Shown here: one piece after another, positions 1 to 62,465 of the stretch
Numbering within the stretch: the first letter of the stretch is position 1
Layout of the letters: each line of letters begins with the position of its first letter
Source of the DNA: Candidatus Collierbacteria bacterium RIFOXYD2_FULL_45_13
GTDB taxonomy: Bacteria > Patescibacteriota > Microgenomatia > UBA1400 > MFAQ01
NCBI GenBank assembly: GCA_001774685.1
Contig: MFAS01000001.1
Location: 91,489 to 155,488, forward strand
Direction of reading: 5' to 3'
DNA length: 64,000 nucleotides
Position numbers and translations under genes: made by a program
Notes under the pieces: model-generated
What the model saw: the letters and a program-made list of their open reading frames with translations, nothing else
Databases searched by the model: none
What the model was told of the DNA's origin: nothing

Positions 1-2124
1 CTCTTGATAAGGCATCTGCGAATAAGCCGCATCGAAAGCCGGCAAGAAAGACATTCCCCCAATCAAGTTTCTGTGTTCCCAGACCCATTTGATTAGGTCA
101 ATTACCTCATCCGGGTGATAGGTTATGGTTACACTCGGGTTGTGTTCGGTCCAATTTATTTTATTTTTCAACCAATACTCACACTGCGCCGTTGCGGAAA
201 AGCTTTTTCTGGTTACCGCCCCGTCTGGAGACTTAACCGGAAAATGGATTACCCATGTATTTGCTGACTCCAAAGTTTGTCCGTTTTCCGGATCCATCGG
301 CACTCCTCCAGACTTTAGTACTTTAAATATCGAAGAATGAGTACTCACTCTTATGTTCCTCACGTAATACGGAGACCACCTTGCATGGATTCCTGATGAA
401 CAATTAAAGAGTTGCGAGGAGTTTCCTGATGGTTTGACACAAGTCACGGCTGCAGCTTGGTTGATCCCCAGTTTTTCTGCAACCTCCCTGTTAGTTTCTA
501 TGGCCACCTGTCGCAATCTATTTTGAACCGCGGAGTCTTGAGCTACCGGGCTGTCCATCTGACCGTTAATATCCACTCCCAAGAGCCTTTCCTCCTCACA
601 ATTATTCTTCCAAGCAGGTCTGAGCCCTGAAAAATTGGTCGCCATTGCCTGTATCGTCCCAATTATCGAGGCCACTTCAACTTTGTCTTTCAATGTCTCA
701 TAGGTGTCTTCTCTTCTGGCAATGGCAATCGAAAGATTACAAAACTCATAAGGCCTAAGGATTATTTCTCCACAAGGATTTGTACCAAATTCCGCCGGCG
801 CCCTCCTGGCAGGCCTCATATCAAGAGCTGATTGACGGTTAAAAATACCGGGTTCCCCTCGGCCGGATTTAACTATCTCCAACATTTGTTTGGTTACCTC
901 CAGCTGGGTCAAGCCGGACAACGGCCAAACGGCACTGTTGTTGGCGTTCCATCGCTGACTATTATCTCGTTCAAAGTCCCCGGATTTTGAGTCCCACATT
1001 TCCTTGTCATCAAAGTCAAAGAGAGATATCATCGCAGTTCGCCTCATTCCTCCGGAAACAGCCGCATTCCCCACCTCACACATAATATCGTGCGCATCAA
1101 TGGCTCTAAGGAAACTCCCCTGTCTTGTAAAAATCCTCTCTCTTACAAACTCCATCATTTTCCGCAAAGGTTCTGGGCCTGAAGACCTCCCTCCCTTGGT
1201 TCGCAGTATTGCGCCTGCTGGACGAAGTGCCGAATAATCAAACTTTATGTCCCCTCCATCAAACCAAGTATGCAGACCGGTTCTCAAGGCGTCTGCCCAC
1301 CCCTCGGTCGAATCTTCAATCAACATCTGTTTTGTTTCCAACCCATCCTGTCGCTTAACCCGGGGCAGGTTTTCTACGTATCGATTCTCTACCGAAAATC
1401 CAACCCCACAACCATTCATTGAAATTATTAGCGCCTCGACGAAAGAATCTATGCTATCCACCGGTTGGTAAGAACAATTGTAGATACTGATATTGTTTCT
1501 TCTCGCCGCCGGTCCGGCCATAGCCAGGAGCCTCATTGATGGAGTGGCTTTCATTTCCAGTATTGAATTCCTGATTCTCTTGTAAACTCCAGACTCCAGT
1601 TTTCCCCCGGATAACTCACGTAAGAAATCCACCGACCGATCAACTGTTTCCTTCCACGTCTCCCTCCTACCTAAATCGTAATTAAATCTTGAATATTTAT
1701 CAAAAAACTGGAACTTCTGAATCTGATTTTCAAAATAAACATCGCTTTCGGAAAACGCCTTGGCCACTTCTTTCGGAATCGGCCGCGAATCCCTCAACTT
1801 GGCATGTTCAACTCTATAAATAATATAGTTCTTGGCGGCCTCAAACTCGCCTGCCGCTTGCAACACCAGTTCGACTGTATCCTGAACCTGCTCCACTGTT
1901 GGTTTTGTGTATTTTGCTCCGATAATATTCACTACCCGCTGTGCTAGTTCACCCACTGGAGTCAATGGGTTCTTACCAAGATCCTCAAAGCATGAAGAAA
2001 TCGCCTTCTCAATTTTCTGTATTTCAAAAGGGACCACCCGTCCATCTCTCTTCACAATAGTCTTGGGAAACTCTATCTTGATCCTGTCGATCTTCTTTGT
2101 GGTATTTATTTTGCTTTTTCTCAT
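1..2124 (-). CDS. nrdJ: Ribonucleotide reductase, class II (adenosylcobalamin-dependent), N-terminal ATP-cone. Partial: the C-terminus runs off the window start
   Basis: My own minus-strand translation from ATG 2124: MRKSKINTTKKIDRIKIEFPKTIVKRDGRVVPFEIQKIEKAI (ATP-cone), then the RNR active-site motif TNPCGEI around 765-790. Only short plus-strand ORFs lie in 1..2130. It is absent from the ORF track because no stop codon falls inside the window. Sits directly downstream of nrdR. Confidence 0.72.
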   Translation of the reverse strand, partial: MRKSKINTTKKIDRIKIEFPKTIVKRDGRVVPFEIQKIEKAISSCFEDLGKNPLTPVGELAQRVVNIIGAKYTKPTVEQVQDTVELVLQAAGEFEAAKNYIIYRVEHAKLRDSRPIPKEVAKAFSESDVYFENQIQKFQFFDKYSRFNYDLGRRETWKETVDRSVDFLRELSGGKLESGVYKRIRNSILEMKATPSMRLLAMAGPAARRNNISIYNCSYQPVDSIDSFVEALIISMNGCGVGFSVENRYVENLPRVKRQDGLETKQMLIEDSTEGWADALRTGLHTWFDGGDIKFDYSALRPAGAILRTKGGRSSGPEPLRKMMEFVRERIFTRQGSFLRAIDAHDIMCEVGNAAVSGGMRRTAMISLFDFDDKEMWDSKSGDFERDNSQRWNANNSAVWPLSGLTQLEVTKQMLEIVKSGRGEPGIFNRQSALDMRPARRAPAEFGTNPCGEIILRPYEFCNLSIAIARREDTYETLKDKVEVASIIGTIQAMATNFSGLRPAWKNNCEEERLLGVDINGQMDSPVAQDSAVQNRLRQVAIETNREVAEKLGINQAAAVTCVKPSGNSSQLFNCSSGIHARWSPYYVRNIRVSTHSSIFKVLKSGGVPMDPENGQTLESANTWVIHFPVKSPDGAVTRKSFSATAQCEYWLKNKINWTEHNPSVTITYHPDEVIDLIKWVWEHRNLIGGMSFLPAFDAAYSQMPYQE

Positions 2125-47596: not shown

Positions 47597-48481
47597 ATGG
47601 GTTTTTTAAAAGAACTTGGAGAGTTTTTGATAAAGATTTCAGAGGGCAAGCTTCAGTTCAAGGCAGATGTTCACTTCTTAGAAAATGTTAAAGATATTAA
47701 AGTAGGTGAATCCAACACGACTTATGTTGACAACAGAACTCTAATTATTGGTGACGATGCGTTGTCTAACCCTGAAGCGGTAAAAAAACTTACGCAAATA
47801 TTCCAATCTGCGATAGATCCAAAAAATAAACAAGCGTATTTTTCGGTAAATAATGGGCAGGAAAGGTTGTTGGAAGTGAAAGAGGCCGATATTTGTTCTT
47901 CAAACATAGACTTCTTTAGGGGTAAAATCTCCGACACAGATTTTATTATTCTACAAACGGCATCTGTAGTTAAAAACATGTATATCAAGGGAAACCAGCC
48001 CGAAGCAAATAGAATAAAACATGAGACTGTAGAAAGGTATGGCAAAAGAGCAAACAATATCATTAACTTATACGCTGAAAGTTACTTCGATACCACACTA
48101 AAGCCACTATATGAGATACTTTACGAAACGGGAGATGCTGACTCTGTAGATATCTTCGACAAAATGTATAGAATAATTGTTTCTGAGGAAGTTTTTACTT
48201 TATTTGTCTCAACGACACAGACAGAAGAACAGGTTTACGATAAGCTTAAGGAAAAAATAGAGGTCAACAGGTCTTACGGTGCTTACAAGATAAATATTCA
48301 TGGAATAAACAAGTCAAATGTTGACAAGATTAATAATGTTGTGGTTAAACTTATTGAAGAAAAAGTGGTTGATGGAATGCCAAATATCATTCAAAAAGGA
48401 CATGCCATCATGGCGCAAATTAAACTTAGTAAAAGAGAAGGAGATGTTGATCCATCAGATGATGTAGTTTCTATAATTTGA
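47597..48481 (+). CDS. Hypothetical protein (294 aa)
   Basis: Long ORF. No recognisable motifs. Confidence 0.5.
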   Translation: MGFLKELGEFLIKISEGKLQFKADVHFLENVKDIKVGESNTTYVDNRTLIIGDDALSNPEAVKKLTQIFQSAIDPKNKQAYFSVNNGQERLLEVKEADICSSNIDFFRGKISDTDFIILQTASVVKNMYIKGNQPEANRIKHETVERYGKRANNIINLYAESYFDTTLKPLYEILYETGDADSVDIFDKMYRIIVSEEVFTLFVSTTQTEEQVYDKLKEKIEVNRSYGAYKINIHGINKSNVDKINNVVVKLIEEKVVDGMPNIIQKGHAIMAQIKLSKREGDVDPSDDVVSII

Positions 48482-48538
48482 TTAGAATTTAGACACAAGC
48501 TGTGACATTTGCCATACCAGACTATTCCTTACATACAT

Positions 48539-49189
48539 TTAATTACAAAACCATGATCTCTCACATCTGGTAGTGCAGGTGCCAGTAAAGCTATTGCAGT
48601 TCTCCTTACAGCACATTGGTGCCTCCATGGGCTTAACTGTTGGGATTTGAATTGGCTGTTGGATTCGAACATTTGTAACGGGAGCTGGTTTGTTGCTTTG
48701 TGCGTACTCCTGCTGTTTCAGCTTGCACTCATCTTTATCCAAAGTTATGTTTACATTACCCACCCCGCAACATGTCGAATTAACACAAGCGCTTTGTTTC
48801 ATTCTCTTCGTACCCCCACCACATTTTTCATGCAAAGGGCAATCTATCAGAGGGTCTGATTGATCTATCTTGGTATTGGTTTTGCTAAGGTCAGCACTTG
48901 GGATTGAGTACAAGACAAAAAAGAACAAAACAAAGACACCGCCAGACACTCCTAGCATTTTCCAGTCTTTATTTCTAAGGACAGAGACAAAAAACAGTAA
49001 AAATCCAATTACCCCAACGAGTATGCCTAATAAGAGTAGGAGCATGTTGAAACCACTTCCGTTTAAAAAGTTTCCACTTACCGAAAGAATTGAGATATAA
49101 AAGATAGCAATTCCTGACAACCAAAGATAAAAATATTGTCTACTGTGGTTGACAGCGTGACTATTCCTTGTCGACTTACCTTTTTTCAT
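48539..49189 (-). CDS. Membrane protein with a Cys-rich C-terminal domain, hypothetical
   Basis: Two or more TMs, more than 12 Cys in the C-terminal 90 aa. Confidence 0.45.
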   Translation of the reverse strand: MKKGKSTRNSHAVNHSRQYFYLWLSGIAIFYISILSVSGNFLNGSGFNMLLLLLGILVGVIGFLLFFVSVLRNKDWKMLGVSGGVFVLFFFVLYSIPSADLSKTNTKIDQSDPLIDCPLHEKCGGGTKRMKQSACVNSTCCGVGNVNITLDKDECKLKQQEYAQSNKPAPVTNVRIQQPIQIPTVKPMEAPMCCKENCNSFTGTCTTRCERSWFCN

Positions 49190-49196
49190 CTTACAT

Positions 49197-49400
49197 TCAG
49201 TTTACACCTGTCATTTTAATGAGATCAGTCATTTTATACCTTCTATCACCTCTTATACCAAACCTGATGGCCTTCAAAATCCCTTTCTTATCCCAAAGCC
49301 TCAAGGTATTTGGGTGAACTCTCAATATTTTGCATGCCTCAGATAGGGTCACAATTTCATTTAATTTCTTTTTCATAGCCATAATTTTTACCAAGTACAA
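49197..49400 (-). CDS. Excisionase/MerR-like helix-turn-helix DNA-binding protein (HTH_17-like)
   Basis: IVTLSEACKILRVHPNTLRLWDKKGILKAIRFGIRGDRRY. Confidence 0.6.
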   Translation of the reverse strand: MYLVKIMAMKKKLNEIVTLSEACKILRVHPNTLRLWDKKGILKAIRFGIRGDRRYKMTDLIKMTGVN

Positions 49401-50107
49401 TACTTTCCAGTCAACTCGTTAAACCTGCCTCTTTGAGACGAGATGGTCTGCATTCGATAATAATCGATTGGGTCTGAAGTTTTAATTCCATACTGTAAAA
49501 GCCTTTCGGATCTGTTTTGATCATTATCTCTTCTCCAATCTTGACATTCTTTTATCTCAGCATCTGCTCCTCTACGATGACATTTCGAATCCATCTCTAG
49601 AAATGCAACTTCCTCTTCATATTTCTTAAGATCTGAATACACCTTTGTTAACTGTTCACCTGTACATATGGCGGGAACAATTTCCCCCTTTATTTCTCGT
49701 GGAACAGCTATTTGCTGGGTTGGACTAGTAATAGAAAACTTTGGAACAGGAAATTTTTGGAACTTAGAAAGAAAATACTTATCATATTCACGAATCATAT
49801 CTGGCGAGTTCATAATTCTATCAATACTCGCCTTTTCAGTTAATCCAAAAAAATTTCTCAGGACATCTTCAGTAATTGAAGTCGTTGGGTGAAGAATTTT
49901 TGTCGGTGTCACTGATGGTTTTCTGGTTGGATAGTTTGTCGGTTTATTTACAACTGGTGAATCAGGCGCAACCAATGTTACGGTTGGCATTACAATCTCT
50001 GTCGATTCCGTAGCTACTGGTGTGTATTTCTCTATTTGTTTGGGTTGATGACTAAATAAGCTTGAAATAGACACAAACATTGCAACAAAAAAGTTTCTCA
50101 TAACCAT
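49388..50107 (-). CDS. Secreted hypothetical protein
   Basis: Signal peptide MVMRNFFVAMFVSISSLFS. 13-nt overlap with the HTH gene. Confidence 0.5.
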   Translation of the reverse strand: MVMRNFFVAMFVSISSLFSHQPKQIEKYTPVATESTEIVMPTVTLVAPDSPVVNKPTNYPTRKPSVTPTKILHPTTSITEDVLRNFFGLTEKASIDRIMNSPDMIREYDKYFLSKFQKFPVPKFSITSPTQQIAVPREIKGEIVPAICTGEQLTKVYSDLKKYEEEVAFLEMDSKCHRRGADAEIKECQDWRRDNDQNRSERLLQYGIKTSDPIDYYRMQTISSQRGRFNELTGKYCTW

Positions 50108-50152
50108 ATCTTACTTGATATTACCTCACAATAAAATACAATATACCTCATC

Positions 50153-50956
50153 ATGAATATAAAGATTATTGAACCAACTTTTATGGCAAGAGAGATCAGA
50201 AAAGTTACTTCATACGAAAAGATTTTTTTAAACATACTTGAAGATGATGCTTACTTTGAGACTAAAGTATTATCTGCAAGAAAAATGCTTGGTATACCTG
50301 AAAACGGATTTGATATTCAGATAAATGTTCTATCCAAAGATTTCCTTAGTGATGTCCTAATGTCTGAAAGAGGGAAGCCACTTATGGAACTGTTAAAACA
50401 CACTGGTCTAAGTCGGCAAAAACACGAGAGACTACTTAGAAAACTGACCCAAGAAATTTGCAACGAGTATCAAATGCACCTTGGTCGATGGGAATTCCCA
50501 ATATCGCTACTAATCATATACAACAAGTTAATTATGTATACAGGAACAAATTTACCTAAAGTTAATCTTGTAAGTGGTTCTGAGGTGTCAGGAAAAACTC
50601 CTTATAGATATCAAATACCTGACAGTTTTGTCTATTTGGAAATAGAAGATATTCTCACAAAAACAGAGTTAATAAGAAGCGTAAAAAAACTTTGGCCCAA
50701 AATAAACAAAATGTTAAAAAAATACAGAAGTCCAATCACATCTGTTCCAAGAATAAAGATTCAAGATCCTACGCTTGAAATCTATAGATTTATATTCCAA
50801 CAAAGACAAAATGAAGACGCTACTTTTACTCAAATTGCTGACAAAATATCCGACAAGTACAACAAACAGTTTTCCGATAACCAAGCCAACATTTATTTCA
50901 CAAGATATCTTGAAACCATAAATAGCCTCAGAAAATCTACCACATCTCAGACATAA
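50153..50956 (+). CDS. Hypothetical protein (267 aa)
   Basis: Long ORF in an AT-rich block. Confidence 0.5.
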   Translation: MNIKIIEPTFMAREIRKVTSYEKIFLNILEDDAYFETKVLSARKMLGIPENGFDIQINVLSKDFLSDVLMSERGKPLMELLKHTGLSRQKHERLLRKLTQEICNEYQMHLGRWEFPISLLIIYNKLIMYTGTNLPKVNLVSGSEVSGKTPYRYQIPDSFVYLEIEDILTKTELIRSVKKLWPKINKMLKKYRSPITSVPRIKIQDPTLEIYRFIFQQRQNEDATFTQIADKISDKYNKQFSDNQANIYFTRYLETINSLRKSTTSQT

Positions 50957-51411
50957 CAACTGTTATGTTTATCTTTTGATGTATTAAGTTCATCCATAAA
51001 AAGTTAGATTTGCTTGTTATTAAAACAGGCAAATATGAATATAAACAATTTCTTTGTTTCAGCAGATCTTCCCTTAGTCACCACCATCTCCCTTTATTAC
51101 CCAATAGACGCCCTCGACAGATCTAGCCCTCCAAGAGTTCAATTTCTTTTTAAGAGGGATGGCGATCTCGATAAGCTGGTTGAGGCTTTCTGGAAAGACG
51201 AACTCAGAGTCAGTCCTCAAATCTTTTTCAACCAACTGAAAATTATTAAGTCTAGGATTCACAACAACTAGTATGTTGAGTCCAGCGTTGATCTCCGAAC
51301 TCCAACAGATTCTTATCTCCGACTTTGGAATCAATGCTGATTTAAAAGAAACTACCAATATCGGCAATTCTCTGGCTAAGTATTTCGAAATATTAATAAA
51401 CATAAACAAAA

Positions 51412-51612
51412 ATGAAAAACCTCAAGTCCCAACCAAAAAACGCAATTATTAAACTCCACAGAGTGCTGGAACAGGCTATCAAAGCCAAGTGCTACGACTG
51501 CCAGTGTGGGCAAAAGAAACTAGACTGCGAAATCATAGCCTGTCCACTTTACTTACTAAGACCATGGGCAAACAAGAAGTATAGGAAAAATAAACAAATT
51601 TCCCAAGGCTAA
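51412..51612 (+). CDS. Small Cys-rich (zinc-binding-like) protein, hypothetical
   Basis: CYDCQCG...C..IACP. Confidence 0.4.
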   Translation: MKNLKSQPKNAIIKLHRVLEQAIKAKCYDCQCGQKKLDCEIIACPLYLLRPWANKKYRKNKQISQG

Positions 51613-51643
51613 ATAATAAATAATTTGATTCCTAGTAATAAAT

Positions 51644-51997
51644 ATGAATATAGACATACAAGACATCAAAGTAAAAATCAAAATCCTCAAAGGAGCCGGG
51701 AAAACACTTGCTCAAGCCTCCATAACACTGTTTGACTGCTGGACGGAACATGGATGGCGAATAATGACCTCTGAACACCTCGATCCCATCCTTCAAGAAT
51801 ATATATGGATTCAATCCCCTTGTTTTAAAGCTGGCTTCTCTTGGAAAGAAATGGTCTTTATCGAACCCAAAGAACAATATGAAAAAGTTTACGAAAAAAT
51901 CTACGACGCATATAGAATCGCCAAATACAAGGAACCACAGGAAGATGAAGCAGAAAAAATATTCACCGACTCAAAAACGAATGAACCACCTTTCTAG
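51644..51997 (+). CDS. Hypothetical protein (117 aa)
   Basis: ORF with an acidic C-terminus. Confidence 0.45.
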   Translation: MNIDIQDIKVKIKILKGAGKTLAQASITLFDCWTEHGWRIMTSEHLDPILQEYIWIQSPCFKAGFSWKEMVFIEPKEQYEKVYEKIYDAYRIAKYKEPQEDEAEKIFTDSKTNEPPF

Positions 51998-52002
51998 ACA
52001 CA

Positions 52003-52085
52003 TAGTAACTAATAGAGTTACTTATATAGTTACTCTATATAGTAACTATATTGTTTCTCTAAATAGAGTATCTATAAAAGTTACT
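52003..52085. promoter_or_regulatory. Iteron-like cluster: 5 copies of AGTAAC/GTTACT in alternating orientation (candidate operator, origin or recombination site)
   Basis: catAGTAACtaatagaGTTACTtatataGTTACTctatatAGTAACtat ... aaaaGTTACTgt seen directly. Lies 45-125 nt upstream of the 52130 gene. Confidence 0.55.
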
Positions 52086-52129
52086 GTACCCGAAAGTATT
52101 AGAATCTCTAATTATTTCGGATAAACAAA

Positions 52130-52744
52130 ATGGGTAGATATTCGTATTCAAGCAAGTCAGAAGCCGACTCACTAAAAAGCGTCAGTGTCTATTGGCTAAA
52201 TAAATATAAATATCTAGAACCTGGCTATACAAAATCGGGTGGAATTGTATGGACTAGGTCAAATGGATCGAAAAACGACATCAGAATTTGTGTTTCCATC
52301 CCCGATCTTTATGTTCAATTCAAATATATTCAAACAGATCGTGAAACCGGAGAGAAAAAAGACTTTGACTACAAGATTCCACTCATCACGTCAGTATGCC
52401 ACTTTGGTGGAATAAGATATTGGTTCAAATGCAGTATGTATAAAAGCGGAAAGTTCTGTGGTCGGAGAGTAGCTACTGTTTACAAAGATGGAGACTACTT
52501 TGCTTGTAGGCATTGTTACGATCTCACATATTCGAGCAAAAAAGAAAATTATAAGGGTTTCTTTGGAATGTTGACAAAATTAATCTATGAAGAAAAAAGA
52601 ATGGAAGCAATTAGAGACTCTCTCAAGAGAAAGACCTACGCTGGCAGACCAACCAAAAAAGTTCGAAGGTTCCTCCGACTCGCTAGTCATCATCCGGAAA
52701 AGGTTCATGAGCTAATCGACCAAAATATATATCGAGCTCGTTGA
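52130..52744 (+). CDS. Zinc-finger protein, hypothetical (Cys4: CHFGG..C / C..CRHC)
   Basis: Basic C-terminus. Preceded by the iteron cluster and followed by the serine recombinase. Confidence 0.5.
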   Translation: MGRYSYSSKSEADSLKSVSVYWLNKYKYLEPGYTKSGGIVWTRSNGSKNDIRICVSIPDLYVQFKYIQTDRETGEKKDFDYKIPLITSVCHFGGIRYWFKCSMYKSGKFCGRRVATVYKDGDYFACRHCYDLTYSSKKENYKGFFGMLTKLIYEEKRMEAIRDSLKRKTYAGRPTKKVRRFLRLASHHPEKVHELIDQNIYRAR

Positions 52745-52793
52745 TTTAACAATACTTGATAATAGATACCAAATAAACTAAACTAAAATAAAT

Positions 52794-54017
52794 ATGAAAA
52801 GTGTTGTTCTGTGTAGAGTTTCCAGCAAAGAGCAAGAAGAAACCGGATATTCTTTGGGGGCACAGGAAAAGTTCCTGAACTCTTATAGAGAGAAACAAGG
52901 ATACCAACTCACAAAGCTCTTCTCTATCTCCGAATCAGCCAGTGGTAAAAAACAAAGAGAGCTTTTTGATCAAATGATTTCATTCGTCAAGAAGAACGAA
53001 ATAAAGGTCATAATCTGCGAGAAAGTCGATCGTCTCACCAGGAATTTTAAAGACATGGTCATGATCGATGAGTGGTTGGAAGAAGATGAAAGCAGGCAAG
53101 TCCACCTAGTCAAAGACTCTCTAATAATTCATAAAAACTCTCGATCTCAAGAAAAACTCAATTGGGGTATTCGAATCCTGTTCGCCAAAAATTATGTCGA
53201 CAACCTATCGGAAGAAGTCAAAAAAGGGCAAAAAGAAAAGATTTCTCAAGGCTGGCTACCAACAAAACCACCGTATGGATATAAAACCATTGGAGAGAGC
53301 GGACACAAAGAACACATCATTGATGACCGAATTGCTCCGCACATAAAAAGAATGTTTGACCTGTACTCTACCGGGATCTATTCCATCAAACGAATAGTCG
53401 AGGTTATATATCAAGAGGGACTAAGATCACATAAAGGAAATAAACTCACAAAGAGTCGAGTTGGTGAACTCCTATCCGATCCGTTTTATATCGGGAAAAA
53501 TGTATGGAATGGTTCTGAATATATCGGAAAACAAGAACATCTGATTTCAGAAGAAACATTTGCGAAGGTACAACAAGTTTTAAAAGGAAAAACAAACCCA
53601 AAATACAGCAAGCACGATTTCCTTTTCAAGGGTCTGATTAAATGTCAGGAGTGTCATGGTACTATCACATGGGAAACTCAAAAAGGAATCATCTATGGCC
53701 ACTGTAATCACTATCGAAACTGTTCTCAAAAAACCTGGTCAAAAGAAAAGGATACAGAAGAAACGGTTCTTAAGGGTCTGGAAAGTTTGAAACTGTATAG
53801 TCCTAAGCTCACAGAATGGATAAGAAAAGCGTTAAAAGAAAGTCACCAGTCAGAGATTGAATACCACGAATCAACGCAAACAGAACTAAAACAAAAATAC
53901 GACCAAGTACAGAATAGATTAGACCGACTCTTCGATGAAAAGATTGATGGAAATATCGAGGATGCGTTCTATAAAAGAAGTTCACTCAGTATTCCGAGGA
54001 AAAAGAAGCCATCCTAA
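52794..54017 (+). CDS. Large serine recombinase / integrase (resolvase catalytic domain + recombinase domain + zinc ribbon)
   Basis: Catalytic-Ser region VLCRVSSKEQEETGYSLGAQ, VDRLTRN, ribbon CQECHG..C..C, coiled-coil tail. Confidence 0.85.
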   Translation: MKSVVLCRVSSKEQEETGYSLGAQEKFLNSYREKQGYQLTKLFSISESASGKKQRELFDQMISFVKKNEIKVIICEKVDRLTRNFKDMVMIDEWLEEDESRQVHLVKDSLIIHKNSRSQEKLNWGIRILFAKNYVDNLSEEVKKGQKEKISQGWLPTKPPYGYKTIGESGHKEHIIDDRIAPHIKRMFDLYSTGIYSIKRIVEVIYQEGLRSHKGNKLTKSRVGELLSDPFYIGKNVWNGSEYIGKQEHLISEETFAKVQQVLKGKTNPKYSKHDFLFKGLIKCQECHGTITWETQKGIIYGHCNHYRNCSQKTWSKEKDTEETVLKGLESLKLYSPKLTEWIRKALKESHQSEIEYHESTQTELKQKYDQVQNRLDRLFDEKIDGNIEDAFYKRSSLSIPRKKKPS

Positions 54018-54352
54018 GTAGCATTAGACGACATTCAGAGTCCTCCACGAACTATCTTCAGAAATGTCTAGCTGTCTATGATATTTCACAAAATGCCACC
54101 GGGTCATACTCAAACGGAACTGTAGAACAAAAACACGAGTTAATAAATCTAGTCTTTAAGTCCCTGACTCTAAATAATGGGGTGCTTGGATACTCCTACA
54201 ATGATCATTTTGACCTGCTACACAAAGCTGTTCAAGCCACCAATAGTTCGAAAGTCGAAAAAACAGTCTCAGAAGACTCTATTATTTTCGAACTAGGTAA
54301 AAAGACGGATAAATCGAACATTAAAGGCCGGATATTACCCACCCGACCTGTT

Positions 54353-54650
54353 TGGCTCCCCCGCGTGGACTCGAACCACGGACATCCTCCTTACAAGTGC
54401 CCTCAACTTTCGAAGAGGCTTGGACTATCTCATCACCGCTGAGCGGTGTCAGGCGTATAGTCTCTGAACCTTCCGATCAACAAACACAGGGGTTTACCCT
54501 GAGCCTGCCGAAGGGCTTGGCTGCGGATTACCATGGCCTTTCGGTCAACAGGCTTCCCGACAGTTAACCCGATTTTCCACCCAAAATTGCTTTCAGGCGC
54601 TGCAAGTTATGTATTACAGGGAGGCGCTCTACCAACTGAGCTACAGGGGA
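54353..54650 (-). tRNA. tRNA-Asn(GUU) interrupted by a group I intron. Exon 1 is 54616..54650, exon 2 is 54353..54393 with CCA encoded
   Basis: Spliced sequence UCCCCUGUAGCUCAGUUGGUAGAGCGCCUCCCUGU|UAAGGAGGAUGUCCGUGGUUCGAGUCCACGCGGGGGAGCCA. Nearly identical in architecture to E. coli tRNA-Asn (anticodon loop CUGUUAA, variable loop AUGUC, T-loop UUCGAGU, discriminator G). 5' exon ends in U and the intron ends in G. Confidence 0.7.
54394..54615 (-). other. Group I intron (222 nt) inserted between anticodon positions 35 and 36
   Basis: Core elements on the RNA strand: Q AAUCCGCAGC (54520-54529), R GUUCAGAGACUA (54458-54469), S GAGAUAGUCC (54422-54431). A candidate internal guide GCAG pairs with the exon end CUGU. 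The ORF-track ORFs 54182..54442 and 54352..54567 overlap it and are spurious. Confidence 0.65.
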
Positions 54651-54680
54651 ATATAAACGAACCTAGTTATTTTACCAACC

Positions 54681-54992
54681 TCACGCCTTTCCCGCAAGGC
54701 TAATATAGCCAGAATGGACCTCTCTGTGGCAATTTGCACACAACAAAACACATTTTAGGACTTCTTCTTTTGTTTTCTCCCACGATCTAGTCAAGCCTCT
54801 ATCTGACAAACCAAACTCTTTGGTCGACCCCTCTATGTGATGGAAATCGAGCGCTTTTATCGCTCTACAATACCCACAAACCACACATTTTCCACCCAAT
54901 AAGTCCACAGCCATTTGTCTTAATTTCTTTCTACGTTTTTTGACAGATCTAATATTACTTTCCCTTACATCAGCATATTTTCTGGTCTCCAT
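54681..54992 (-). CDS. Free-standing HNH endonuclease
   Basis: CVVCGY...DFHHIEG...CANCH (HNH beta-beta-alpha-metal motif). 31 nt upstream of the intron-containing tRNA. Confidence 0.75.
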   Translation of the reverse strand: METRKYADVRESNIRSVKKRRKKLRQMAVDLLGGKCVVCGYCRAIKALDFHHIEGSTKEFGLSDRGLTRSWEKTKEEVLKCVLLCANCHREVHSGYISLAGKA

Positions 54993-55062
54993 CCATATTC
55001 AATTTACCATAAAAAAACCGAAGCTTCAGAGCCAAATTTGGAAACTTAACTATATCCGAATA

Positions 55063-55389
55063 TCAAACCAACTTCCCTAAAACGACGTTCAACAAAGCGA
55101 GCACTACTGCCGCTATAAGTGCCGCTCCGAACCCGTCCACCTTAAACCCGGTTACAAAATTACTCATCAACATTATTAAAAAGGCGTTTATGACAAAGGT
55201 AAATAGCCCCAAGGTCAGGATGTTTACGGGCAAGGTTAACAGAATCAAGATTGGTCTCAAAACAATAGACAGTACCCCCCACACAATAGCCACCACCGCC
55301 AGAGCTTGAAAGTTGGCAATACGCACCCCAGGAACAATATAAGCAGTCACATAAAAAGCCAATGCGTTGACGATTAAGTTAATTAACAT
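55063..55389 (-). CDS. Phage-holin-4_2 family (PF04020-like) four-TM membrane protein
   Basis: MLINLIVNALAFYVTAYIVPGV...VDGFGAALIAAVVLALLN. Confidence 0.55.
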   Translation of the reverse strand: MLINLIVNALAFYVTAYIVPGVRIANFQALAVVAIVWGVLSIVLRPILILLTLPVNILTLGLFTFVINAFLIMLMSNFVTGFKVDGFGAALIAAVVLALLNVVLGKLV

Positions 55390-62362: not shown

Positions 62363-62447
62363 GGAGGGGTCACATAGTGGTCTAGTGTAGAGGTTTACTA
62401 AACCTCCGTGTCGCAAGGCACCATGGGTTCGAATCCCATCCCCTCCG
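62363..62447 (+). tRNA. Class II Ser-type tRNA with an apparent ACU anticodon (atypical)
   Basis: Acceptor GGAGGGG/CCCCUCC. Anticodon arm GAGGU-UUACUAA-ACCUC. 16-nt variable arm. T-arm AUGGG-UUCGAAU-CCCAU. A paralog of the GCU tRNA, with A rather than G at position 34. Confidence 0.6.
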
Positions 62448-62465
62448 CCTGTGTTAATATGAAAT

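What the first reader, a model, noticed from the sequence alone, without database searches (positions are those of the whole stretch)
54681..54992. Free-standing HNH endonuclease immediately upstream of the intron-containing tRNA
A 103-aa HNH protein (CxxC...HH...CxxCH) is encoded 31 nt 5' of tRNA-Asn on the same strand. Group I introns normally carry their homing endonuclease inside a peripheral loop. Here the intron is too small (222 nt) to encode one, and a free-standing HNH gene sits beside it. It may be a trans-acting homing or collaborative-homing endonuclease for the intron, or part of the adjacent mobile block. It is probably co-transcribed with the tRNA.
Basis: inference. Interest (0 to 1): 0.5.

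Follow-up and report, generated by a model that had tools for sequence, protein, structure and literature searches.

The report
Homing endonuclease gene escaped from tRNA intron
A small HNH nuclease gene sits just upstream of an intron-split tRNA-Asn gene; its relatives are normally encoded inside that same intron, so it most likely still spreads the nuclease-less intron from next door.

Summary
ORF 54681..54992 (-) encodes an intact 103-aa HNH nuclease. It ends 30 nt before a tRNA-Asn(GUU) gene (54650..54353) that is split at position 35/36 by a 222-nt group I intron.

The family is tightly tied to this tRNA. Among the 80 best genome loci with a homologue, 59 carry the ORF inside a 440-720-nt intron at the same tRNA-Asn site, and 6 more look the same but are cut by contig ends. 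Seven copy the window's layout, 2 sit beside an intron-less tRNA-Asn and 4 lie nearby in other orientations.

In the intronic forms the ORF fills the P1 loop, and its last codons supply the internal guide sequence (GCAG) and P2. Every outside copy examined, the window included, keeps a decayed relic of that segment. The outside copies are scattered through the protein tree. The gene therefore left the intron, and did so several times.

Against a syntenic relative, HNH plus tRNA plus intron form a ~770-nt tract with 11% synonymous change, versus 38-60% in flanking genes. This points to recent lateral exchange of the module.

Best reading: a free-standing homing endonuclease that mobilises itself and the ORF-less intron (collaborative homing). 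Cleavage is untested. It is not part of the neighbouring recombinase element and not a packaging HNH. I rate it a new variant of a known kind, of moderate interest.

The parts
54681..54992 (-). Free-standing HNH endonuclease gene (103 aa), intact
   Evidence: ORF. PHROG HNH families E=2e-28. All family-invariant residues kept. AF2 pLDDT 91.9. dN/dS about 0.07 against L001.
55001..55009 (-). Extended -10-like box TGGTAAATT, 8 nt upstream of the ATG; putative own promoter giving a leaderless or near-leaderless mRNA
   Evidence: Sequence. In the family, TGGTATAAT or TGGTATACT lies 6-10 nt before the start in 55 of 80 loci at 5/6 or better, including ORFs inside introns. Inferred, not mapped.
54681..54704 (-). 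Relic of the ancestral intron's internal guide sequence and P2 hairpin, now the last 7 codons and stop of the HNH (ATT AGC CTT GCG GGA AAG GCG TGA)
   Evidence: All intronic homologues have ..ACG CAG CTT CC.. here, with GCAG as the guide sequence, followed by a P2 hairpin. All 14 outside copies that could be examined lack GCAG; most, the window included, keep a homologous remnant. Rfam's global alignment places its P1-P2 at 54705..54660.
54669..54677 (-). Extended -10-like box TGGTAAAAT in the HNH-tRNA spacer; candidate promoter for the tRNA
   Evidence: Sequence. The simple scan finds only a weaker overlapping site. Spacers of other upstream-type loci also carry -10-like boxes. Inferred.
54616..54650 (-). 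tRNA-Asn(GUU) 5' exon, ending CUGU (positions 32-35)
   Evidence: ARAGORN with introns allowed; manual reading.
54394..54615 (-). ORF-less group I intron, 222 nt, inserted at 35/36. P1 is exon CUGU plus AA paired with the guide sequence UUGCAG (54605..54600); the terminal base is G
   Evidence: Rfam RF00028 72.8 bits. The P1 hairpin with U.G at the splice site is recovered by folding. Homologous introns at this site splice in vitro (PMC13011429).
54353..54393 (-). tRNA-Asn 3' exon (UAA..., T arm, acceptor, CCA)
54353..55123 (-). About 770-nt tract (last ~60 nt of the holin-like gene, HNH, tRNA and intron) that is far more similar to locus L081 than the flanks are; putative recent conversion tract
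   Evidence: Pairwise alignment. Synonymous change at conserved codons is 11% in the HNH versus 38-60% in six flanking genes, Fisher p<=2e-5.

Best explanation
The ORF is a homing-endonuclease gene of the HNH family that is normally encoded in the P1 loop of the group I intron interrupting tRNA-Asn(GUU) at position 35/36 in Patescibacteria. In this lineage the gene cassette (its own extended -10 promoter, a leaderless start and the ORF) has ended up just outside the tRNA, 30 nt upstream of the 5' exon. The intron has kept only its ribozyme. These points are shown by comparison.

The proposed mechanism is inferred. The enzyme, perhaps as a dimer, nicks or cuts intron-less tRNA-Asn genes in or near the anticodon-loop region. 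The resident gene is protected because the intron splits that site. Repair from the donor copies the intron and, by co-conversion over about 400 nt, the neighbouring HNH gene. The two parts then spread as one module. This is collaborative (trans) homing.
For: 1. Association. Of the 80 best genome loci with a homologue, 59 have the ORF inside a 440-720-nt intron in tRNA-Asn, and 6 more are the same type but cut by contig ends. Seven have the window's layout, 2 precede an intron-less tRNA-Asn, 4 lie within about 160 nt in other orientations, and 2 are unresolved. All 70 intron-bearing tRNAs resolve as ..CUGU|intron..G|UAA.., that is Asn GUU at 35/36.

2. Direction of change. In every intronic copy the codons after the last His contain the guide sequence GCAG followed by P2. 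Every outside copy examined has lost GCAG, and most, including the window, keep a recognisable remnant. Outside copies are scattered among intronic ones in the protein tree.

3. Still functional. All invariant residues are present. dN/dS is 0.07 against L001 with saturated dS, and L001 shares both synteny and layout.

4. Recent movement of the module. Against the syntenic L081, synonymous change is 11% in the HNH versus 38-60% in DnaG, RpoD, TK, the holin-like gene, the recombinase and orf204 (p<=2e-5). tRNA plus intron are 96% identical. The tract ends at the tRNA 3' end. Saturated dS against L001 rules out general constraint on synonymous sites.

5. Seen from the intron side. In an intron-anchored metagenome sample, 12 introns carry the HNH inside, 19 ORF-less introns have it within about 700 nt, and 61 have none within 500 nt or more.

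6. Phage relatives. Homologues of about 50% identity sit in tRNA clusters. In Bacillus phage Bastille the gene is followed at once by a tRNA-Asn 3' half that starts at the anticodon loop CTGTTAA.

7. Published context. HNH genes inside tRNA-Asn 35/36 introns of Patescibacteria, and splicing of such introns, are reported in PMC13011429. Collaborative homing is an established pathway (PMC3984707).
Against: No cleavage data exist for any member of this family, so target site and specificity are inferred.

Two loci (L010, L040) have an apparently intact HNH directly upstream of an intron-LESS tRNA-Asn. That tRNA shows no obvious change at conserved positions. This is awkward if the enzyme cuts every intron-less tRNA-Asn gene.

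The protein is only 103 aa and has no separate DNA-binding module apart from a basic N-terminal helix. How it achieves site specificity is unexplained.

The anticodon stem varies among host genes.

The mobility signal rests on one pair of genomes.

Some free-standing homologues have replaced the last metal-binding His, which hints at altered function outside the intron; the window's copy keeps it.
Confidence: 0.6

Rival explanations
1. Stranded or domesticated remnant. The gene left the intron by a rearrangement and no longer promotes intron mobility. It persists by vertical descent because it gained another host function (for example DNA repair or defence), or it has simply not yet decayed.
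For: The layout is inherited with synteny in the window, L081 and L001. Purifying selection against L001 fits a host function. HNH sits beside intron-less tRNA-Asn in L010 and L040. The last His is substituted in several outside copies, and two copies (L103, L127) are degenerate.
Against: The four- to five-fold deficit of synonymous change in the HNH relative to both flanks, against L081, indicates recent lateral replacement rather than pure vertical descent. A host function would not explain why every outside copy stays within a few hundred nt of tRNA-Asn, in several orientations.
Confidence: 0.25
2. The HNH acts on RNA rather than DNA, for example as a splicing helper (maturase-like) or a processing factor for the tRNA-Asn precursor.
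For: The N-terminal helix is conserved and arginine/lysine-rich. The best sequence match among solved structures is the endonuclease domain of a group II intron maturase (E=8e-5). Homing endonucleases can acquire maturase roles (general knowledge; PMC3984707).
Against: Homologous ORF-less introns at this site self-splice in vitro without protein (PMC13011429). Most ORF-less introns have no HNH nearby. Catalytic HNH residues are strictly conserved, which a pure RNA chaperone would not need. The matched part of the maturase is its DNA endonuclease domain.
Confidence: 0.05
3. Cargo of the neighbouring integrative element (the serine recombinase block at about 47600..54440).
For: A large serine recombinase gene starts about 340 nt beyond the tRNA 3' end. 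The block is also present in L081.
Against: The HNH lies on the other side of the tRNA, next to conserved chromosomal genes (holin-like, TK, RpoD, DnaG). L001 has HNH and tRNA-Asn without the block. The recombinase and orf204 show ordinary synonymous divergence of 51-60%. None of the 80 related loci needs such a block to explain the HNH. No repeat of the tRNA 3' end was found in the window.
Confidence: 0.02
4. A generic or phage packaging-associated HNH that lies near a tRNA by chance.
For: The HNH superfamily is huge, with 15,756 clusters at E<=1e-10. PHROG hits are to phage proteins.
Against: No terminase, portal or phage genes lie nearby. The matching PHROGs are filed under nucleotide metabolism, not packaging. 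Phage homologues lie in the tRNA clusters of the two phages inspected. Near-universal association with tRNA-Asn is incompatible with chance.
Confidence: 0.02

Closest known systems
HNH homing-endonuclease genes inside group I (IA) introns at position 35/36 of tRNA-Asn(GUU) in Patescibacteria (Nakagawa et al. 2026, mSystems, PMC13011429)
   Same: Same protein family: 55-65% identity to intron-encoded copies found here. Same host gene, same insertion site and same kind of intron. The promoter-like box before the start codon and the relic guide sequence/P2 show common descent.
   Different: Here the gene is outside the tRNA and the intron is ORF-less. That paper searched for ORFs only inside introns longer than 500 bp, found 4, and concluded that most tRNA introns lack endonuclease genes and have limited mobility. 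It does not mention free-standing copies.
Collaborative (trans) homing: free-standing F-CphI beside the ORF-less psbA intron of cyanophage S-PM2, and T4 mobE with the defunct I-TevIII intron (reviewed in PMC3984707; PMC2790892)
   Same: [quoted passage not shown] The proposed logic is the same: the enzyme targets the intron insertion site, the intron protects the donor, and both are co-converted.
   Different: Those are phage protein-coding genes; this is a bacterial chromosomal tRNA gene. In the published model the free-standing state precedes invasion of the intron. Here the relic guide sequence/P2 and the tree indicate the opposite direction, intron to outside, several times over. Cleavage is shown for F-CphI and mobE, not here.
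Free-standing homing endonucleases in phage tRNA gene clusters, e.g. T4 SegB (GIY-YIG; PMC2330249)
   Same: A nuclease gene is embedded among or next to tRNA genes and promotes inheritance of the tRNA region. Homologues of the window's HNH occupy such positions in Felix O1 and Bastille.
   Different: SegB has a different fold (GIY-YIG), and no intron is involved. The phage HNH homologues are longer (147-161 aa) with an extra N-terminal zinc-ribbon-like region, and they are uncharacterised.
I-Ssp6803I, the endonuclease encoded in the cyanobacterial tRNA-fMet group I intron (cited from own knowledge; the PD-(D/E)XK class in tRNA-fMet introns is mentioned in PMC13011429)
   Same: An endonuclease linked to a tRNA anticodon-loop group I intron in bacteria.
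   Different: Different nuclease fold, encoded inside the intron, different tRNA and insertion position.

Membership tests
HNH (beta-beta-alpha-metal) nuclease superfamily | Catalytic His (HH), structural Asn and metal-binding His in the order H...N...H | tested here: met
   H51-H52, N87, H89 and H93 are invariant in 68 aligned homologues that include the window protein.
HNH (beta-beta-alpha-metal) nuclease superfamily | Paired CxxC zinc-binding motifs flanking the core | tested here: met
   C36/C39 and C85/C88 (plus C81) are invariant.
HNH (beta-beta-alpha-metal) nuclease superfamily | Beta-beta-alpha fold | tested here: met
   The AF2 model (pLDDT 91.9) has strands 48-52 and 81-85 and helix 86-94. 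The best Foldseek matches are HNH domains of Cap5, Cas9, T4 endonuclease VII and Gme HNH, but with weak E-values of 0.05-1.
HNH (beta-beta-alpha-metal) nuclease superfamily | Score above the curated Pfam PF01844 threshold | tested here: not met
   17.1 bits versus a cut-off of 21.4. Some close homologues do carry a precomputed PF01844 hit, and PHROG HNH profiles match at E=2e-28.
HNH (beta-beta-alpha-metal) nuclease superfamily | Metal-dependent nuclease activity | not testable with these tools
   Needs biochemistry.
Intron-encoded HNH endonuclease of Patescibacteria tRNA-Asn 35/36 introns | Sequence homology to the ORFs found inside these introns | tested here: met
   52-66% identity over nearly full length to the ORFs in the loci classed as intronic. 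The window and L001 are sister to the intronic L004, L017, L005 and L024 in the tree.
Intron-encoded HNH endonuclease of Patescibacteria tRNA-Asn 35/36 introns | ORF located within the intron (P1 loop), with its 3' end supplying the guide sequence and P2 | tested here: not met
   The ORF ends 30 nt upstream of the 5' exon. GCAG is lost and only a relic remains.
Intron-encoded HNH endonuclease of Patescibacteria tRNA-Asn 35/36 introns | Host gene is tRNA-Asn(GUU) with a group I intron at 35/36 | tested here: met
Free-standing endonuclease acting by collaborative (trans) homing | [quoted passage not shown] | tested here: met
   HNH at 54681..54992; tRNA with a 222-nt intron at 54353..54650.
Free-standing endonuclease acting by collaborative (trans) homing | [quoted passage not shown] | not testable with these tools
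   Only indirect hints: the family is tied to the tRNA-Asn anticodon loop in bacteria and in phage Bastille. L010 and L040, with an intron-less tRNA next to the HNH, are unexplained.
Free-standing endonuclease acting by collaborative (trans) homing | Endonuclease gene and intron are inherited or converted together | tested here: met
   Indirect. A tract of about 770 nt of high identity covers both, with an 11% versus 38-60% contrast in synonymous change relative to the flanks. This rests on one genome pair.
Phage packaging-associated HNH (terminase partner) | Gene adjacent to terminase or portal genes in a phage or prophage | tested here: not met
   The neighbours are a PF04020 membrane protein, thymidine kinase, RpoD, DnaG and a tRNA. 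Phage homologues lie in tRNA clusters.

The most novel reading that the evidence does not exclude
The 'ORF-less' tRNA-Asn/Asp group I introns of Patescibacteria are not immobile, contrary to the recent conclusion. A sizeable share, about a quarter in the sample here, is served in trans by an endonuclease gene that has repeatedly jumped out of the P1 loop to a flanking position. This would give many independent natural replicates of the switch between intron-encoded and free-standing states. The same minimal 103-aa HNH family also patrols tRNA clusters in phages, which would make it a tRNA-gene-specific nuclease lineage whose mode of site recognition, with no obvious DNA-binding domain, is unknown.
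Probability: 0.35. Interest if true: 0.65.

Novelty: new variant of a known kind. Interest (0 to 1): 0.5.

Why it matters
How endonuclease genes and group I introns come together, and come apart, has been argued from a handful of phage cases. Here one family shows about 60 intronic and more than 30 extra-intronic copies at a single, precisely defined site, the tRNA-Asn anticodon loop. A built-in marker, the guide sequence encoded in the ORF's tail, gives the direction of change.

That makes collaborative homing and endonuclease 'escape' testable in bacteria with simple cleavage and co-conversion assays.

It also qualifies a published inference that tRNA introns of Patescibacteria are mostly immobile because they lack internal ORFs.

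Practically, annotation pipelines miss both the tRNA and its link to the 'hypothetical protein' next to it.

Tried and rejected
1. I looked for a decayed 5' exon upstream of the HNH, as a partial tandem-duplication model would predict. The alignment of the window, L081 and L001 upstream regions with intronic sisters (A3) shows similarity only in the ~25 nt before the ATG. The apparent match further upstream is the end of the holin-like gene. No support, so the physical route of relocation stays open.

2. I looked for an att-like repeat of the tRNA 3' end in the window and found none.

3. I tried to explain L010 and L040 (HNH beside an intron-less tRNA-Asn) by target-site changes. There is no clear deviation at conserved positions, apart from a compensated D-stem change in L040.

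4. Sequence search of solved structures gave only marginal hits: the group II maturase endonuclease domain at E=8e-5 and McrA. Foldseek E-values were weak. No characterised homing endonuclease emerged as a close relative.

5. NCBIfam gave only spurious iron-sulphur-type hits.

6. ARAGORN's amino-acid calls (Thr, His, Pro) for many loci were rejected as two-base boundary shifts, as described in PMC13011429. All resolve to Asn.

7. Rfam's placement of P1-P2 upstream of the 5' exon was rejected as the true P1. The real P1 is CUGUAA/UUGCAG inside the gene. The misplacement is explained by the relic.

8. The simple promoter scan's site at 54678..54650 would start transcription inside the tRNA, so I discounted it in favour of TGGTAAAAT at 54677..54669. 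That choice is still only an inference.

Full report
**Observation**

The minus-strand ORF 54681..54992 encodes 103 aa: METRKYADV...CVVCGY...DFHH...CVLLCANCHREVH.... Pfam's HNH model scores below its threshold (17.1 vs 21.4 bits). Three lines of evidence still identify it as an HNH nuclease:
- PHROG HNH families match at E=2e-28 and 3e-25.
- More than 550 homologues share every catalytic and zinc-binding residue.
- An AlphaFold model (pLDDT 91.9) shows a long basic N-terminal helix followed by a beta-beta-alpha core. Its best, though weak, structural matches are HNH domains.

Thirty nucleotides downstream on the same strand lies a tRNA gene that default ARAGORN misses. With introns allowed it is tRNA-Asn(GTT) at 54353..54650, with a 222-nt intron after position 35. 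Rfam's group I intron model scores 72.8 bits. The 5' exon ends in CUGU, the intron ends in G, and the P1 helix CUGUAA/UUGCAG with U.G at the splice site appears on folding.

The window is part of GCA_001774675.1, contig MFAP01000001.1, a 1.09-Mb contig. The closest named homologue comes from a Microgenomates-group bacterium, and nearly all other homologues come from Patescibacteria/CPR genomes.

**What the relatives show**

A scan of one genome per species returned at least 595 loci encoding a relative, and the 80 best were kept. Rfam on the first 40 found a group I intron starting at the 3' end of the HNH gene in 35 of them. ARAGORN with introns allowed, run on all 80, sorts them as follows:

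| Layout | Loci |
|---|---|
| ORF inside a 440-720-nt intron in a tRNA | 59 |
| Same type, cut by a contig end | 6 |
| Window's layout: HNH immediately 5' of a tRNA with a 176-242-nt ORF-less intron | 7 (L001, L003, L006, L009, L028, L061, L077) |
| HNH immediately 5' of an intron-less tRNA-Asn | 2 (L010, L040) |
| HNH within ~160 nt of an intron-bearing tRNA-Asn, downstream or divergent | 4 (L030, L042, L044, L069) |
| Unresolved | 2 |

ARAGORN calls many of these tRNAs Thr, His or Pro. That is the two-base boundary error described by Nakagawa et al. 2026 (PMC13011429). All 70 intron-bearing genes resolve as ..CUGU|intron..G|UAA.., that is Asn GUU at 35/36.

An independent sample, anchored on the intron rather than the protein, came from metagenome contigs. 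It gave 12 introns with the HNH inside, 19 ORF-less introns with the HNH outside but within about 700 nt, and 61 ORF-less introns with no HNH within 500 nt or more.

**Anatomy and direction of change**

In the intronic copies the order of parts is:
1. The 5' exon ending in CUGU.
2. Twenty-five to 45 nt carrying an extended -10 box (TGGTATAAT or TGGTATACT) 6-10 nt before the ATG. This implies an own promoter and a leaderless message.
3. The ORF.

The ORF's last conserved codons (..H-x-G-I-T-Q-L-P = ..ACG CAG CUU CC..) are themselves the internal guide sequence GCAG, which pairs with CUGU. The P2 hairpin follows. The ORF therefore fills the P1 loop, and its tail does double duty as ribozyme.

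All 14 outside copies that could be examined lack GCAG at this position, and most keep a recognisable remnant:
- The window has ATT AGC CTT GCG GGA AAG GCG TGA.
- Its relative L081 has GTT ACG AAG CTT GCT.
- L009 has ACG ACA AAA CTT CCC CGA AAG...

This relic explains why Rfam's global alignment placed its P1-P2 on 54705..54660 and treated the real 5' exon as an insertion. Outside copies are scattered singly among intronic ones in a neighbour-joining tree. The junctions with the tRNA also differ from locus to locus; in L028 the ORF runs into the acceptor stem. The simplest reading is several independent exits from the intron. I could not reconstruct the physical route, and a search for a decayed upstream 5' exon failed.

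**Is the window's copy alive and mobile?**

The layout and the synteny (DnaG, RpoD, thymidine kinase, PF04020 membrane protein, HNH, tRNA-Asn) are shared with L081 (HNH 86% identical) and L001 (72%). Against L001, synonymous sites are saturated while dN/dS is about 0.07, similar to the neighbouring genes. The free-standing gene has therefore been kept by selection.

Against L081 the picture is discordant. Only 10 of 87 conserved degenerate codons in the HNH carry a synonymous change (11%). The figures for the flanking genes are:

| Gene | Synonymous change at conserved codons |
|---|---|
| HNH | 11% |
| Holin-like gene | 38% |
| RpoD | 48% |
| Serine recombinase | 51% |
| DnaG | 53% |
| Thymidine kinase | 56% |
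| orf204 | 60% |

Each comparison with the HNH gives Fisher p<=2e-5. tRNA plus intron are 96% identical. The similar tract runs from about 55123 to the tRNA 3' end at 54353, and similarity falls off on both sides. The L001 comparison shows there is no general constraint on synonymous sites. The tract is therefore best explained by recent lateral replacement of the HNH-tRNA-intron module. That is what homing with co-conversion would produce. It is one genome pair, so the evidence is suggestive rather than conclusive.

**Mechanism proposed**

Shown by comparison:
- The gene belongs to the intron's endonuclease family.
- It is intact.
- It has what looks like the family's promoter.
- It lies beside an ORF-less but structurally complete intron.
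- It has recently moved together with that intron.

Inferred: the enzyme nicks or cuts intron-less tRNA-Asn genes near the anticodon loop. The resident gene is protected by the intron. Repair copies the intron and, about 65-400 nt away, the HNH gene. [quoted passage not shown]

Phage relatives give extra support for a tRNA-directed specificity. Homologues of about 50% identity sit in tRNA clusters of Felix O1, where the gene ends overlapping tRNA-Ile. In Bacillus phage Bastille the gene is followed at once by a tRNA-Asn 3' half that begins at CTGTTAA, with no intron present. The best-scoring relatives in the 1.8-billion-protein library carry two copies of the domain, which suggests the single-domain protein acts as a dimer.

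**Weak points**

- There is no biochemistry for any member of the family.
- L010 and L040 pair an apparently intact HNH with an intron-less tRNA-Asn.
- How a 103-aa protein achieves specificity is unexplained.
- Several outside homologues have replaced the last metal-binding His, and two are degenerate. Some escaped copies are therefore changing or dying.

**Rivals**

- A stranded or domesticated remnant remains possible (about 0.25).
- An RNA-level role is unlikely, because homologous introns self-splice and most ORF-less introns have no HNH nearby.
- Membership of the adjacent serine-recombinase block is refuted by L001 and by the divergence data.
- A packaging-type or chance HNH is refuted by context.

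Co-transcription with the tRNA cannot be decided. Each gene has a -10-like box, and no terminator separates them.

**Comparison with what is known**

HNH genes inside tRNA-Asn 35/36 introns of Patescibacteria were reported in 2026: four cases in 95 complete genomes. [quoted passage not shown] Free-standing copies beside the ORF-less introns are not mentioned there. Collaborative homing is known from phages, where the free-standing state is seen as the precursor of the mobile intron. Here the direction appears reversed and repeated.

**Verdict**

The finding is real, and its main interpretation is supported comparatively. It is a new variant of a known kind, of moderate interest.

Noticed in passing
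window 52794..54442 (+): The large serine recombinase next to the tRNA is frameshifted near residue 395 (about 53978) relative to the intact 560-aa orthologue in L081. Its C-terminal coding region runs antisense through the tRNA-Asn 3' exon and the end of the intron.
   Followed up: partly
window about 47597..54017: A block of hypothetical genes, a MerR/HTH_17-like gene and the serine recombinase looks like an integrative element lodged beside tRNA-Asn. It is present in L081 and absent in the syntenic L001. No repeat of the tRNA 3' end was found.
   Followed up: partly
loci L004, L008, L014, L017, L018, L022, L025, L026, L028, L036, L043, L065, L079 and others: Many MAG contigs stop 0-140 nt after the tRNA-Asn 3' end, several exactly at it. 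This suggests population heterogeneity or an integration hotspot that breaks assemblies there.
   Followed up: no
L010 2307..2694; L040 1550..1938: An HNH gene lies directly upstream of an intron-LESS tRNA-Asn. This fits intron loss after the gene left the intron, but is awkward for a simple self-protection model.
   Followed up: partly
L207 (Bacillus phage Bastille) 1162..1830; L206 (Felix O1) 1261..1815: Phage homologues sit in tRNA clusters. In Bastille an intact tRNA-Asn is followed by the HNH gene. A tRNA-Asn 3' half follows directly after the HNH stop codon. It starts at the anticodon loop and has the same downstream flank (CACGTTATC) as the intact copy. In Felix O1 the HNH ORF overlaps the start of tRNA-Ile. 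Neither has a group I intron.
   Followed up: partly
L001-L085, region upstream of each HNH start: A family-wide extended -10 box (TGGTATAAT or TGGTATACT) lies 6-10 nt before the ATG, even when the ORF is inside the intron. This implies a leaderless, self-promoted endonuclease message.
   Followed up: yes
L040, L061, L109, L130, L139, L145, L146, L156, L160; Bastille HNH: In several free-standing homologues the last His of the HNH motif (H93 in the window) is replaced by E, A, S or N, while the intronic copies seen here keep His. L103 and L127 are degenerate fragments.
   Followed up: no
protein library hits P0121-P0129 etc.: The best-scoring relatives in the 1.8-billion-protein library are 200-330-aa proteins with two tandem copies of this HNH domain. 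Their context is unknown.
   Followed up: no
window 62363..62449 (+): ARAGORN calls a tRNA-Ser with anticodon ACT (A34), which is unusual for bacteria. It lies in a cluster of Ser and Arg tRNAs at 62.0-63.6 kb.
   Followed up: no
window 54660..54705 (-): Rfam's group I intron alignment starts inside the HNH ORF and skips the true 5' exon as an insertion. Coordinates from RF00028 alone would therefore misplace the intron's 5' end by about 90 nt.
   Followed up: yes
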